Shown here: positions 6,394 to 8,896 of the stretch, piece after piece
Position numbering within the stretch: the stretch's first letter is position 1
Layout of the letters: the number at the start of each line of letters is the position of its first letter
Source of the DNA: a virus
Direction: 5' to 3' (one strand)
UHGV virus genome: UHGV-0287902
Length of the DNA stretch: 38,964 bases
Program-made: the position numbers and the translations under genes
The notes under the pieces: generated by a model
What the model saw: only the letters and a program-made list of their open reading frames with translations
The model's database searches: none
What the model was told of the DNA's origin: nothing

Positions 6394-6538
6394 CACCACA
6401 TTAATCAATTAAATATCACTTCATTTTAATTATGGCGCTCGCGTCAGGGGACTGCTTGCGCCTGAAAACAGAAAATAAGGGTTAAGAAATATGAAATACG
6501 TTTATATCGTCATTAATAATGTGGTGGGGAAATAAATC

Positions 6539-7072
6539 ATGATTGATGCAAAAGTGCTTGAAGGGGTTAAAAACTGGCTGTGTATTTATGGCCGCCTGAC
6601 CTGCGGTGTACTGGCTGAAAAAATGAATATGCCGCCATCCTCCATGGTTTATTTTCTGCGTGATGCGGTTGATGCAGGCGTGCTGACGGAATGTAACGGT
6701 TTTTATGATATTCCGCGCCCCCGCCCGGTGCAGCCGGTTCGTCGCAAATGCAGCCAGGAATCTGCGGCTGATGATGTTCAGTGGTGCGGCTTCAGAAAAT
6801 CCCTGCCATGGATTGAGGGGCATGATATTCCGTCGATGGCGTGGGAATTTGCTCAGGGCGTTCTGACCTGTGAAACCGTTTATGTGGTGGCTGAAGTTGA
6901 TGAGCAGGCCATGAAAGAAGGCGTGCCCCAGTTTGTGATGGCGTATATCGACATACGCCTGGGCGTCATTATCTGCGGTTTAAGCGGCTGGAATATCACT
7001 GAACATGTTCTGCGCTACCTGATTGTTGACCGGACAGCAGCGCCTGCCGGGATATCTGCGGAGGTGGCGTAA
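6539..7072 (+). CDS. hypothetical protein, early accessory cluster
   Basis: 177 aa; follows an unusual 145-bp gap after gam; no motif recognised. Confidence 0.6.
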   Translation: MIDAKVLEGVKNWLCIYGRLTCGVLAEKMNMPPSSMVYFLRDAVDAGVLTECNGFYDIPRPRPVQPVRRKCSQESAADDVQWCGFRKSLPWIEGHDIPSMAWEFAQGVLTCETVYVVAEVDEQAMKEGVPQFVMAYIDIRLGVIICGLSGWNITEHVLRYLIVDRTAAPAGISAEVA

Positions 7073-7587
7073 TGTTCTTTAAAACATCAAACCCTTCCGC
7101 GCTGGCTGCGTGGCAAAAATACCAGCAGGACTGCCAGAAAGTTAAGGATGAGGCAAAACGCCTTGAGGCCGTGCTGAATGTTGCGTGCCGGTCGGTATTT
7201 GTATCCGGTATCAGTGGATTTTACTTTAAGGGACTGCGTTTTACGGAGGACAAATATCCTTTTCATCGCGACTTATGGCGAAAACCGACTGCGTCGAATG
7301 GCTGGAGCTGCACACCGCGCACATCACGTATCCCTAAAACCCTGCGTGTTGCCTCTGATGAACTGAACAGTCTGTGGCGTGAATATTCGCCCGTCACGTA
7401 TGCCAGAACCGATGCGCTGTTGTTCTGGTTGGGTATTGATTTCTCGGCAATCCTGTTTGGCCCTGTGAAGTGGTTCTGCGTTGACGATGTGATTTACCTT
7501 CAGTGCGGCGTAAAACCCGCAAAACAGAAAATGACCGAAATACTGTCTGATGAGTTTTATGCTGCTGAAAAGCGAGTCAGGGGGTGA
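7072..7587 (+). CDS. hypothetical protein, early accessory cluster
   Basis: 171 aa; start overlaps previous stop (TAATG). Confidence 0.6.
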   Translation: MFFKTSNPSALAAWQKYQQDCQKVKDEAKRLEAVLNVACRSVFVSGISGFYFKGLRFTEDKYPFHRDLWRKPTASNGWSCTPRTSRIPKTLRVASDELNSLWREYSPVTYARTDALLFWLGIDFSAILFGPVKWFCVDDVIYLQCGVKPAKQKMTEILSDEFYAAEKRVRG

Positions 7588-7590
7588 TGC

Positions 7591-8142
7591 ATGATGAAAT
7601 TACAACCCATGGGACTAAAAGGTCGCGCCCCCGCTCATGTCCGTCCGTGGACACCTGAAGAAGATGCGCTGCTGATTGCGCTTTATTCATCCACCCCGGT
7701 TAAGGATATTGCTGCCAGAATAAAAAGAACTGTCTGGGCTGTATATAACCGGACTGGTGTATTGCGCAGTTCATACCCGGAGTTACTGAAATATAAACAC
7801 CCAAGATTTACACCTGATGAAGATAAGTTTATTCGAAAAAATGCCAGAACAATGACCTGCCAGCAAATGGGAGAATATCTCGGACGTAATAAAGATTCTG
7901 TCAGATGTCGGGCAGGAATGATTGGTGCTGGATTAACAAAGTGCGGAGAGTTACGCCCCGGCACGCGCATATCTGATGATGATGTACGTCTTATACGTGC
8001 GCTGCGTGATTCCGATTACCCACGCCGTCTGTCATTCCGGGAAATTGGCGAAAAGTTTGGAATATCTGAACATTCTGCTCACGCAGTTTATTACCGTCGC
8101 CGGACTGCCGAGGACGCTGTATTACGGGAGTTAACGCCATGA
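7591..8142 (+). CDS. putative DNA-binding protein with three HTH-like repeats
   Basis: 183 aa; repeats WTPEEDALLIALY...DIAARIKRTVWAVYNR, RFTPDEDKFIRKN...QMGEYLGRNKDSV, LSFREIGEKFGISEHSAHAVYYRR; AGGGGG RBS. Confidence 0.65.
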   Translation: MMKLQPMGLKGRAPAHVRPWTPEEDALLIALYSSTPVKDIAARIKRTVWAVYNRTGVLRSSYPELLKYKHPRFTPDEDKFIRKNARTMTCQQMGEYLGRNKDSVRCRAGMIGAGLTKCGELRPGTRISDDDVRLIRALRDSDYPRRLSFREIGEKFGISEHSAHAVYYRRRTAEDAVLRELTP

Positions 8143-8471
8143 TAACGACCTTATTTGTTGAATCAGATGAACCTCTTGTGTGTGCCGCCGGAATGCCGCT
8201 CTGTGGCGGAACGCTGACCGGCGTTTATTTCGGGGATTTGCGCGGTTATCCCTGGCATTCACTGGATGACGCATTTCCGCCTGATATGGAGGCTGTCGTG
8301 CTGATTGTTCAGTATGGTGACCAACAGGAACTGCGCATCGGCCATATGGGGTATGAAGGCTTTTTTATTGATGAAGAAACCGGAGCCTGCCTTGAAGATG
8401 AGGACGGACAGGTGACGCACTGGTGCCATCTTTCGGCCTTGCCGGAATTACAGGGGATACATAATGGATGA
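8139..8471 (+). CDS. hypothetical protein
   Basis: 110 aa; ATGA overlap with previous gene. Confidence 0.55.
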   Translation: MITTLFVESDEPLVCAAGMPLCGGTLTGVYFGDLRGYPWHSLDDAFPPDMEAVVLIVQYGDQQELRIGHMGYEGFFIDEETGACLEDEDGQVTHWCHLSALPELQGIHNG

Positions 8472-8607
8472 GCAAATTGTTGAATGTCCCACCTGTGGAA
8501 ATGAGGACCCGGAGTATCTGAAAGAGTGCCCACATTGTGGTGAGATAAAATGTAACCACTGCGATATGGGCGACGACACTGCATGTATAAATTGTGAGGA
8601 TGAATAA
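8464..8607 (+). CDS. small zinc-ribbon protein (4 CxxC)
   Basis: 47 aa, below track threshold; CPTC, CPHC, CNHC, CINC; start overlaps previous stop. Confidence 0.5.
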   Translation: MDEQIVECPTCGNEDPEYLKECPHCGEIKCNHCDMGDDTACINCEDE

Positions 8608-8608
8608 T

Positions 8609-8896
8609 ATGGAAAAAGAAATCAAATTTGCGCCTAAATCTATCGACGAAGAACTGGCTAAAATCGGCATGCTTGAACGTATGCGGGACATTATCGAATA
8701 TGCGATAAAAGAAAATCTTGCAGCCAGAGAAGCCCTTTTGATAATGGAGCGGGAGATTAACCTGATTAAGGATGCTGTATCTCTGGATAATAAAATAGCC
8801 CGCGAGGAATACGTTCGCCGTAGGCTCGGTGTTGATGGTTCAGCAATTCTTACATCTGAACATTATGCAAAAATTTTTAATCTTTTTCAGCGGTAA
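8609..8896 (+). CDS. hypothetical coiled-coil protein
   Basis: 95 aa from ATG 8609 with GAGGA upstream; track ORF begins 8594. Confidence 0.55.
   Translation: MEKEIKFAPKSIDEELAKIGMLERMRDIIEYAIKENLAAREALLIMEREINLIKDAVSLDNKIAREEYVRRRLGVDGSAILTSEHYAKIFNLFQR

What the first reader, a model, noticed from the sequence alone, without database searches (positions are those of the whole stretch)
6394..8896. Early-region accessory cluster of unknown function
After gam and an unusual 145-bp gap come three mid-sized proteins (177, 171, 183 aa), then 110-aa, 47-aa four-CxxC zinc-ribbon and 95-aa coiled-coil ORFs, all translationally coupled. The 183-aa protein has three tandem HTH-like repeats. These are larger than the tiny semi-essential proteins I recall from Mu. 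Early operons of transposable phages often carry host-takeover or anti-defence functions; that role here is pure inference.
Basis: inference. Interest (0 to 1): 0.55.

Follow-up and report, generated by a model that had tools for sequence, protein, structure and literature searches.

The report
Ordinary Mu-type semi-essential early genes
This block is the normal "semi-essential" stretch of the early operon of a phage-Mu-like prophage of E. coli: four of its six genes are plain counterparts of Mu genes gp11 to gp14 and a fifth belongs to the Mu gp9 family, so it is ordinary, and what the genes do is unknown here as in Mu.

Summary
The ORFs, their sizes, the 145-bp gap, the start/stop coupling, the four CxxC motifs and the three helix-turn-helix repeats are all real. 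The cluster is not unusual.

BLASTP against phage Mu gives:
- 177 aa = gp11 (68% identity)
- 171 aa = gp12 (55%)
- 47 aa = the zinc-ribbon part of gp13 (88%)
- 95 aa = gp14 (49%)

The 183-aa protein belongs to the Mu gp9 family with one extra N-terminal Myb-like repeat (hhalign 97.6%, same PHROG). Across 33 related loci, a gp9 gene before gam and this gene after gp12 never occur together.

Only the 110-aa protein, which is weakly DUF551-like, has no Mu relative.

The gap consists of a stem-loop shared with Mu plus a variable slot. In sister prophages that slot holds a DUF5420 gene.

All six genes are under purifying selection. No match to any defence family, solved structure or RNA family was found, and an anti-defence role remains untested. 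I score it as a new member of a known kind, with low interest.

The parts
6394..6538 (.). Intergenic gap between gam and the gp11 orthologue. It has a conserved 5' part and a lineage-specific 3' filler (about 6467-6538).
   Evidence: the first ~73 bp align with Mu and with sister prophages. The remaining ~72 bp are specific to this lineage and occupy the place where sister prophages carry a 579-bp DUF5420 gene. The gam-to-gp11 distance falls into classes of ~101, 148 and 646-671 bp in related loci. The one promoter-like hit here is within chance expectation. The 10-bp inverted repeat flanking the gap is chance-level.
6434..6462 (+). Conserved stem-loop after gam (GGCGC..GCGTC-AGGG-GACTGC..GCGCC) with no U-tract. 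It marks the boundary between conserved and variable sequence.
   Evidence: Predicted RNA hairpin of -15.6 kcal/mol, z -1.9; the Mu counterpart is -14.8 kcal/mol, z -2.5. The motif was found in 71 IMG/VR loci. Immediately 3' of GCGCCTGAA the sequences split into at least 7 classes. No Rfam match. Function not established.
6539..7072 (+). 177-aa orthologue of Mu gp11 (formerly E10-E12)
   Evidence: BLASTP 68% identity over the full length, E 6e-92. Pfam PF25754 Gp11_C, 139 bits against a cut-off of 27. phrog_1949, E 4e-105. pN/pS 0.14.
7072..7587 (+). 171-aa orthologue of Mu gp12 (formerly E13)
7591..8142 (+). 183-aa tandem triple-HTH (Myb/SANT-like) protein of the Mu gp9 (E8) family. It is absent from this position in Mu.
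   Evidence: phrog_323, E 2e-52, positions 80-256; Mu gp9 hits the same PHROG at positions 142-244. hhalign of the family against Mu gp9: 97.6%, E 3e-12, residues 65-168. AF2 pLDDT 83.9 with three three-helix units. Mutually exclusive with gp9: 10 loci against 23, none with both or neither. Only 78% nucleotide identity to the sister prophage, against 92-95% for its neighbours.
8139..8471 (+). 110-aa protein with no Mu counterpart. It belongs to a narrow E. coli/Salmonella family and is weakly DUF551-like.
   Evidence: phrog_6925, E 2e-51. Pfam DUF551 at 14.6 bits, below the cut-off of 22; two distant relatives give the same sub-threshold hit. Only 17 representatives at E<=1e-3 among 1.84 billion proteins. 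pN/pS 0.20.
8464..8607 (+). 47-aa orthologue of Mu gp13 (E14): a double zinc ribbon with four CxxC motifs
   Evidence: 88% identity over 41 aa to residues 20-60 of Mu gp13. phrog_5584, E 3e-26. Motif positions. Left unannotated in RefSeq genomes.
8609..8896 (+). 95-aa orthologue of Mu gp14 (E15)
   Evidence: 49% identity over 94 aa, E 1e-29. phrog_6075, E 6e-44. pN/pS 0.28. No heptad signal in a crude test.
8877..9116 (-). Convergent 79-aa ORF at the position and in the orientation of Mu gp15. It overlaps the end of the gp14 orthologue by 20 bp.
   Evidence: phrog_32893, E 1e-45. Mu gp15 hits the same PHROG at E 6e-4, although direct BLASTP is not significant. pN/pS 0.27 in this frame.
9145..9164 (+). 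First terminator-like hairpin on the + strand downstream of the block, just before gemA
   Evidence: GGCGGTG-CGGTAA-CACCGCC followed by CATTTTTTAT. This is a consensus match only.

Best explanation
The block is the distal half of the Mu-type semi-essential early region of a Mu-like E. coli prophage. It holds orthologues of Mu gp11, gp12, gp13 and gp14. Two further genes are inserted between gp12 and gp13: a gp9-family DNA-binding protein with an extra Myb-like repeat, and a small, weakly DUF551-like protein.

Inferred mode of action:
- The six genes are read from the long early transcript that also makes the transposase, MuB and Gam.
- They are translated by coupling.
- They act early in lytic growth as dispensable helper proteins.

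The only activity that can be predicted with some confidence is DNA binding by the 183-aa protein through three tandem three-helix HTH units. It appears to stand in for gp9, because each genome has one or the other and never both.

The gam-to-gp11 gap is a stem-loop shared with Mu followed by a recombination-prone slot that is empty here.

Shown: the homology and the gene layout. Inferred: everything about expression and function.
For: Orthology:
- gp11, gp12, gp13 and gp14 at E 6e-92, 3e-67, 6e-32 and 1e-29, in the same order and with the same TAATG gp11/gp12 junction as Mu.
- Pfam Gp11_C at 139 bits.

gp9 link:
- Shared PHROG 323.
- hhalign 97.6%, E 3e-12.
- Mutual exclusivity in 33 of 33 loci.
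- No gp9 hit elsewhere in the window by tblastn.

DNA-binding fold:
- AF2 model with pLDDT 83.9.
- 23 BFVD matches at E<=1e-3, which Foldseek's alignments and the few names given suggest are tandem-HTH/Myb-like phage proteins.
- The weak PDB matches are largely multi-HTH DNA binders.

Operon layout: Shine-Dalgarno sites, overlapping stops and starts, and no + strand terminator-like site until 9145.

Real genes: pN/pS 0.14-0.32.

Gap: alignment with Mu and sister prophages, DUF5420 gene at the same place in relatives, sequence classes downstream of the hairpin.

Wide occurrence: 232 of 5426 complete E. coli genomes carry a match.

Literature: the functions of the semi-essential region are described as 'largely unknown' (PMC3820752).
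Against: - No function is shown for any of the six proteins, here or in Mu.
- DNA binding by the 183-aa protein rests on a predicted fold. Its Pfam Myb score (20.7 bits) is below the cut-off (24.4), and no PDB fold match reaches E<=0.001.
- The relation to gp9 is seen only at profile level; BLASTP finds nothing.
- Mutual exclusivity could reflect two lineages that simply differ, rather than functional substitution.
- Co-transcription from the early promoter was not tested.
- The stem-loop is too conserved to test by covariation.
Confidence: 0.85

Rival explanations
1. Anti-defence or host-takeover island. One or more of the six proteins would inhibit a host defence system or shut down a host process early in infection.
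For: - The region is mosaic and its cargo varies between close relatives, as in known phage accessory regions.
- Other genes of the same Mu region have such roles: Gam inhibits host nuclease, Kil blocks septation, and gp7/E6 is 'gnarl2', which affects O-antigen (bioRxiv 10.1101/2023.04.06.535777; PMC12373910).
- The 183-aa gene has a full-length relative in the early operon of an unrelated P2-like phage, which suggests horizontal transfer of an accessory gene.
Against: - No match to any known defence-related family (PADLOC). No library of anti-defence proteins was available.
- gp11, and in most loci gp12, are kept in both the Mu-type and the window-type layouts, which is unlike fast-turnover anti-defence cargo.
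- pN/pS of 0.14-0.32 shows purifying, not diversifying, selection.
- No literature in the held library links gp11-gp14 to defence.
Confidence: 0.25
2. Phage-directed regulators. The gp9-family 183-aa protein, perhaps together with gp11, would bind sites on the phage genome itself and tune early-to-late transcription or transpositional replication. I recall an 'arm' (amplified replication of Mu) function mapped to roughly this area; that recollection was not verified here.
For: - Exactly one gp9-class gene per genome in 33 of 33 loci fits a housekeeping role for the phage better than optional cargo.
- Predicted tandem HTH fold.
- PHROG 323 is labelled 'transcriptional regulator, D5-like'.
- The gene lies in the early operon, just upstream of gemA and the Mor/C activator.
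Against: - No target sites were identified.
- The PHROG label is an annotation, not a test.
- The region is classed as semi-essential, so any regulatory role is dispensable.
- The link to 'arm' rests on memory only; the literature search for it returned nothing usable.
Confidence: 0.3
3. Some of the small ORFs (47 aa, 95 aa, 110 aa) are not genes but chance open frames in an untranslated operon tail.
For: - RefSeq's pipeline does not annotate the 47-aa ORF.
- ORF lists are purely mechanical.
Against: - All three have strong PHROG matches, E 2e-51 to 3e-26.
- The 47-aa and 95-aa proteins have Mu orthologues.
- pN/pS is 0.20-0.28.
- Each has a Shine-Dalgarno site and a coupled start.
Confidence: 0.03

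Closest known systems
Phage Mu semi-essential early region, genes gp11-gp14 (formerly E10-E15), NC_000929 6424-7957
   Same: - Same position between gam and gemA.
- Same strand and same gene order.
- Same gp11/gp12 one-base stop/start overlap.
- 49-88% amino-acid identity.
- A non-coding gap with the same stem-loop after gam.
- A convergent minus-strand ORF at the end.
   Different: - Two extra genes (183 aa and 110 aa) sit between gp12 and gp13.
- gp13 lacks Mu's 19 N-terminal residues.
- The gap is 145 bp rather than 98 bp.
- There is no gp9 or gp8 upstream of gam.
Mu gp9 (E8, 99 aa; PHROG 323 'transcriptional regulator, D5-like')
   Same: Residues 65-168 of the 183-aa protein align with the whole of gp9 (hhalign 97.6%). 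Both fall in the same PHROG. The two genes are mutually exclusive across genomes.
   Different: - The 183-aa protein has one extra N-terminal Myb-like repeat and a C-terminal helix.
- It lies after gp12 rather than before gam.
- There is no BLAST-level similarity.
Eukaryotic Myb/SANT repeat DNA-binding domains (for example c-Myb R2R3, PDB 1h89)
   Same: Tandem three-helix units that begin with a W/F-[ST]-x-E-E-D-like motif. Weak Foldseek resemblance (probability 0.75).
   Different: - Pfam Myb scores are below threshold.
- The third repeat looks more like a sigma-70 region 4 or AsnC-type HTH.
- There is no evidence of common descent or of the same mode of DNA recognition.
'DNA binding protein' WOZ57150 of P2-like Citrobacter phage Shae_phiSM
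   Same: Full-length homologue (37% identity, 552 bp gene) that is also in an early operon among small accessory genes.
   Different: The host phage is P2-like, not transposable, and the neighbouring genes are different.
DUF551 (PF04448), a family of small proteins of unknown function
   Same: The C-terminal 65 residues of the 110-aa protein align end to end with the model and end in the ...THW...LPE motif.
   Different: The score is below Pfam's cut-off (14.6 against 22 bits). The conserved N-terminal 37 residues lie outside the stretch that aligns with the DUF551 model.

Membership tests
Mu-type semi-essential early region (gp11-gp14 block) | Sequence orthology to Mu gp11, gp12, gp13 and gp14 | tested here: met
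   BLASTP E 6e-92, 3e-67, 6e-32 and 1e-29, full-length except gp13; confirmed by tblastn.
Mu-type semi-essential early region (gp11-gp14 block) | Position between gam and gemA on the early-operon strand, in the same gene order | tested here: met
   The same architecture is seen in IMG/VR loci.
Mu-type semi-essential early region (gp11-gp14 block) | Dispensable for plaque formation, and expressed from the early promoter Pe | not testable with these tools
   Needs deletion mutants and transcript mapping. The only supporting fact is the absence of a predicted + strand terminator inside the block.
Pfam PF25754 Gp11_C | Score above the gathering cut-off | tested here: met
   139.2 bits against 27, covering positions 1-78 of the 78-position model.
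Pfam PF26885 (gp12 family) | Match to the family model | tested here: inconclusive
   All 46 homologues, including proteins 94% identical, carry a precomputed PF26885 hit. The model is missing from the local Pfam copy, so the window protein itself was not scored.
Mu gp9 / PHROG 323 tandem-HTH proteins | Profile match across the gp9 repeats | tested here: met
   phrog_323 E 2e-52 for the 183-aa protein and 5e-29 for Mu gp9. hhalign 97.6%, E 3e-12.
Myb/SANT DNA-binding domain (PF00249) | Pfam score above the gathering cut-off, and a three-helix repeat fold | tested here: inconclusive
   20.7 bits against 24.4. The model shows three three-helix units. PDB fold matches are weak, E>=0.05.
AsnC/Lrp family (the name RefSeq gives to alleles of the 183-aa protein) | N-terminal HTH plus a C-terminal alpha/beta ligand-binding (RAM) domain | tested here: not met
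   Only a sub-threshold HTH_AsnC-type hit (19.1 bits against 27) at residues 130-164. No second-domain hit. The model is all-helical.
DUF551 (PF04448) | Score above the gathering cut-off | tested here: inconclusive
   14.6 bits against 22 for the window protein. Of the 13 other family members scanned, none hit. Two distant relatives score 15.9 and 15.2 bits.
Zinc ribbon | Paired CxxC knuckles | tested here: met
   Four CxxC motifs and 8 Cys. Pfam zinc-ribbon models all score below threshold. Metal binding was not tested.
Coiled coil (95-aa protein) | Heptad periodicity of hydrophobic residues | tested here: not met
   In a crude a/d-position test, 335 of 500 shuffles did as well. No dedicated predictor was available.
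Known anti-phage defence families (PADLOC) | Match to any model | tested here: not met
   No hit at E<=0.1 for any of seven proteins.
Known anti-defence proteins | Homology to a characterised inhibitor of a defence system | not testable with these tools
   No anti-defence library was on offer. PDB sequence searches of the 177-, 171-, 183- and 110-aa proteins and PHROG scans of all six gave no such name.

The most novel reading that the evidence does not exclude
Every Mu-like early operon of enterobacteria would need exactly one gp9-class tandem-HTH protein. The 183-aa three-repeat form would be a specificity variant of it, exchanged by recombination, and would bind host or rival DNA to silence a host function or a defence locus. 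That would make this block, with its swappable neighbours, an unrecognised counter-defence module.
Probability: 0.15. Interest if true: 0.5.

Novelty: new member of a known kind. Interest (0 to 1): 0.18.

Why it matters
It matters little as a discovery. The block is the expected semi-essential early region of a Mu-like prophage, and it is already present at 100% identity in public E. coli genomes.

The useful outcome is a corrected annotation:
- Four 'hypothetical' genes can be named as gp11-gp14 orthologues.
- The gene labelled 'SANT/Myb' or 'AsnC family' is a gp9-family tandem-HTH protein and not an AsnC regulator.
- A 47-aa zinc-ribbon gene is missed by the standard pipeline.

The strict either/or pattern of gp9 and the 183-aa gene gives a simple, testable handle on one of Mu's long-uncharacterised early genes.

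Tried and rejected
- DUF5420 (the gene that fills the gap in sister prophages) as a distant paralogue of gp12. It looked similar by eye, but hhalign gave 0.2% probability. Rejected.
- The 90-aa and 97-aa ORFs upstream of gam as relatives of Mu gp7 (gnarl2). BLASTP E 6.7 and different PHROGs. Rejected.
- The 10-bp perfect inverted repeat flanking the gap (6394-6403 and 6517-6526) as a sign of a small mobile insert. Another equally good 10-bp pair occurs in the same 400 bp. Judged chance-level.
- A promoter in the gap. One 9-of-12 match, with the total number of hits below shuffle expectation.
- A known RNA family in the gap. No Rfam hit.
- PDB sequence searches of the 177-, 171-, 183- and 110-aa proteins. 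Nothing at E<0.08.
- An N-terminal winged-helix domain in gp11, which I suspected by eye. phmmer against the PDB gave only chance-level hits at E~1. Unsupported.
- DUF551 membership of the 110-aa family. Repeated sub-threshold hits only.
- Direct BLASTP of the minus-strand 79-aa ORF against Mu gp15. Not significant; the link exists only through a PHROG profile.
- Pfam scan of ten alternative cargo proteins from related loci. No hits.
- Literature. Searches for 'arm/sot/cim' and for 'Mup11-15' returned only unrelated papers. No paper in the held library assigns a function to gp11-gp14. The Harshey review could not be retrieved.
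Full report
**What is there.** The window is a Mu-like prophage. The region 6394-8896 is 100% identical to stretches in several complete E. coli chromosomes, and some match to it is found in 232 of 5426 complete E. coli genomes.

| Feature | Coordinates | Size |
|---|---|---|
| gam | 5863-6393 | 176 aa |
| gap | 6394-6538 | 145 bp |
| ORF | 6539-7072 | 177 aa |
| ORF | 7072-7587 | 171 aa |
| ORF | 7591-8142 | 183 aa |
| ORF | 8139-8471 | 110 aa |
| ORF | 8464-8607 | 47 aa |
| ORF | 8609-8896 | 95 aa |

- The junctions are TAATG, a 3-nt spacer, ATGA, an 8-nt overlap and a 1-nt spacer. Each start has a purine-rich Shine-Dalgarno-like run upstream.
- No terminator-like site on the + strand is predicted before 9145-9164.
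- Against a sister prophage about 90% identical, which is inserted in an Stx1a phage, all six ORFs give pN/pS of 0.14-0.32. They are real genes under purifying selection.
- The 47-aa protein has CxxC at residues 8, 22, 30 and 41.

**Comparison with Mu.** In NC_000929, Mu has gam, a 98-bp gap, gp11 (176 aa), gp12 (176 aa), gp13 (60 aa), gp14 (100 aa), a minus-strand gp15, then gemA and mor. BLASTP of the window proteins against Mu gives:

| Window protein | Mu protein | Identity | E-value |
|---|---|---|---|
| 177 aa | gp11 | 68% | 6e-92 |
| 171 aa | gp12 | 55% | 3e-67 |
| 47 aa | gp13, residues 20-60 | 88% | 6e-32 |
| 95 aa | gp14 | 49% | 1e-29 |

- The 177-aa protein also passes Pfam's 'Phage Mu Gp11 C-terminal domain' model at 139 bits against a cut-off of 27.
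- All homologues of the 171-aa protein carry a precomputed PF26885 hit.

**The 183-aa protein.**
- It has no Mu counterpart at this position, and BLASTP finds no similarity to any Mu protein.
- It matches PHROG 323 ('transcriptional regulator, D5-like') at E 2e-52 over profile positions 80-256. Mu gp9 (E8, 99 aa) matches the same PHROG over positions 142-244 at E 5e-29.
- A 14-sequence family profile aligns residues 65-168 with the whole of gp9 at 97.6% probability, E 3e-12.
- An AlphaFold2 model (mean pLDDT 83.9) shows three three-helix units at 22-59, 75-111 and 129-169, plus a C-terminal helix.
- Foldseek against the PDB gives only weak matches (E>=0.05), mostly to multi-HTH DNA binders such as Myb repeats, SNAPc, the Tc3 and Mos1 DNA-binding domains and sigma factors.
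- Against predicted viral structures there are 23 matches at E<=1e-3. Nearly all are uncharacterised phage proteins, a few are named Myb-like or endonuclease, and their alignments suggest tandem HTH proteins.
- Pfam Myb and AsnC-type HTH hits are below threshold, and there is no second domain. The RefSeq name 'AsnC family protein' for alleles of this gene is therefore not justified.
- A full-length homologue (37% identity) sits in the early operon of the P2-like Citrobacter phage Shae_phiSM.

**gp9 or the 183-aa gene, never both.**
- I collected 71 IMG/VR loci through the conserved motif after gam and mapped the Mu and window proteins onto them.
- Among the 33 loci with enough flanking sequence, 10 have gp9 before gam and no 183-aa gene. 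The other 23 have the 183-aa gene after gp12 and no gp9. None has both or neither.
- The window itself has no gp9 hit by tblastn.
- This fits functional substitution, but two diverged lineages could give the same pattern.
- The 183-aa gene is also the most diverged part of the block: 78% nucleotide identity against 92-95% for its neighbours, with pS 0.42 against 0.13-0.19. That points to an imported allele rather than to faster protein evolution.

**The 110-aa protein.**
- It is the only member of the block with no Mu relative.
- Its family is very small: 17 representatives at E<=1e-3 among 1.84 billion proteins, all from E. coli or Salmonella and all 'hypothetical'.
- The C-terminal 65 residues align end to end with Pfam DUF551, but at 14.6 bits against a cut-off of 22. 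Two distant relatives give the same sub-threshold hit, and the other close relatives give none. Membership is unresolved.
- The first ~37 residues are shared with proteins whose C-termini are unrelated, which suggests a recombination point inside the gene.

**The gap.**
- Alignment with Mu and two sister prophages shows that the first ~73 bp after the gam stop are conserved in all of them. They include a 29-nt imperfect palindrome at 6434-6462.
- That palindrome folds as an RNA hairpin of -15.6 kcal/mol (z -1.9). Mu's version is -14.8 kcal/mol (z -2.5). There is no U-tract and no Rfam match.
- Directly 3' of it, the sequences from the 71 loci split into at least seven classes.
- The gam-to-gp11 distance falls into classes of ~101 bp (Mu type), 148 bp (this window) and 646-671 bp. 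The long class holds a 192-aa DUF5420 gene.
- The '145-bp gap' is therefore a stem-loop shared with Mu plus an unoccupied variable slot. What the stem-loop does (processing site, stabiliser or protein-binding site) is not established, and it is too conserved for a covariation test.

**Variability of the region.**
- gp11 is kept in both the Mu-type and the window-type layouts, and gp12 is kept in most loci of both.
- The stretch between them and gemA is replaced, shortened or extended in many loci.
- One E. coli prophage has two extra small genes between the 183-aa and 110-aa genes.
- Ten alternative cargo proteins gave no Pfam hit.
- This mosaic behaviour is what the literature describes for the semi-essential region of transposable phages, whose functions are 'largely unknown' (PMC3820752; PMC8705779).

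**Function.**
- Nothing specific could be assigned.
- Precedents for host-directed roles exist only for other genes of the region: Gam, Kil, and gp7/E6, which was reported as 'gnarl2' and affects O-antigen (bioRxiv 10.1101/2023.04.06.535777; PMC12373910).
- My best reading is that the block is the ordinary distal half of the Mu-type semi-essential early region. It would be co-transcribed with the transposition genes and translated by coupling. One component, the gp9-family 183-aa protein, most likely binds DNA.
- Whether it acts on the phage (regulation or replication; about 0.3) or on the host (takeover or counter-defence; about 0.25) cannot be decided from sequence.

**Verdict.**
- It is a new member of a known kind and of low interest.
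- The gp9/183-aa either-or pattern is the one lead worth a simple experiment.

Noticed in passing
window 9770-10192 (with 9704-9727 and 10264): The window has only one Mor/C-family activator gene. It is closer to Mu C (40% identity) than to Mu Mor (28%). It lies directly between gemA and the lysozyme gene, with no counterpart of Mu's middle operon (gp18-gp20, C). A terminator-like hairpin at 9704-9727 separates it from gemA. This hints at a one-step rather than two-step late-gene cascade.
   Followed up: partly
window 8877-9116 (- strand): A convergent 79-aa ORF overlaps the end of the gp14 orthologue. It sits at the same place and in the same orientation as Mu gp15. Mu gp15 hits its PHROG (32893) at E 6e-4, and pN/pS in this frame is 0.27. 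This argues that gp15 is a real gene, although the updated Mu record AF083977 replaced it with a + strand ORF. In some relatives the slot holds a 119-aa or a 138-aa minus-strand gene instead.
   Followed up: partly
window 5003-5284: A 93-aa early ORF upstream of gam matches phrog_1518, which is labelled 'host nuclease inhibitor' (E 9e-43). This would be a second candidate nuclease inhibitor besides Gam.
   Followed up: no
window 8464-8607; L002 6079-6215: The 47-aa gp13 orthologue (zinc ribbon) is left unannotated by the RefSeq pipeline in the identical E. coli chromosome, which shows a false gap there.
   Followed up: yes
window 6434-6462; L008-L078: A stem-loop after gam is shared with Mu and marks a sharp boundary between conserved and variable sequence. 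Downstream of it the loci fall into at least 7 sequence classes, one of which carries a DUF5420 gene.
   Followed up: partly
window 8139-8250; proteins P0036, P0037: The first ~37 residues of the 110-aa protein are conserved in proteins whose remainder is unrelated. This suggests a recombination breakpoint inside the gene, or a shared N-terminal module.
   Followed up: no
L007 (LC727895.1) and LC727881.1: The closest phage-database relatives of this block lie in Mu-like phages that are themselves inserted inside Stx1a- and Stx2c-converting prophages.
   Followed up: no
window 6492-6536: A 14-codon mini-ORF (MKYVYIVINNVVGK) lies in the lineage-specific part of the gap, just before the gp11 start. 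There is no evidence that it is translated.
   Followed up: no
window 1-1000 and 33001-34000, 37001-38000: G+C drops to 0.41-0.45 at the left end (the repressor side) and in two stretches near the right end, against 0.52-0.64 for most of the prophage.
   Followed up: no
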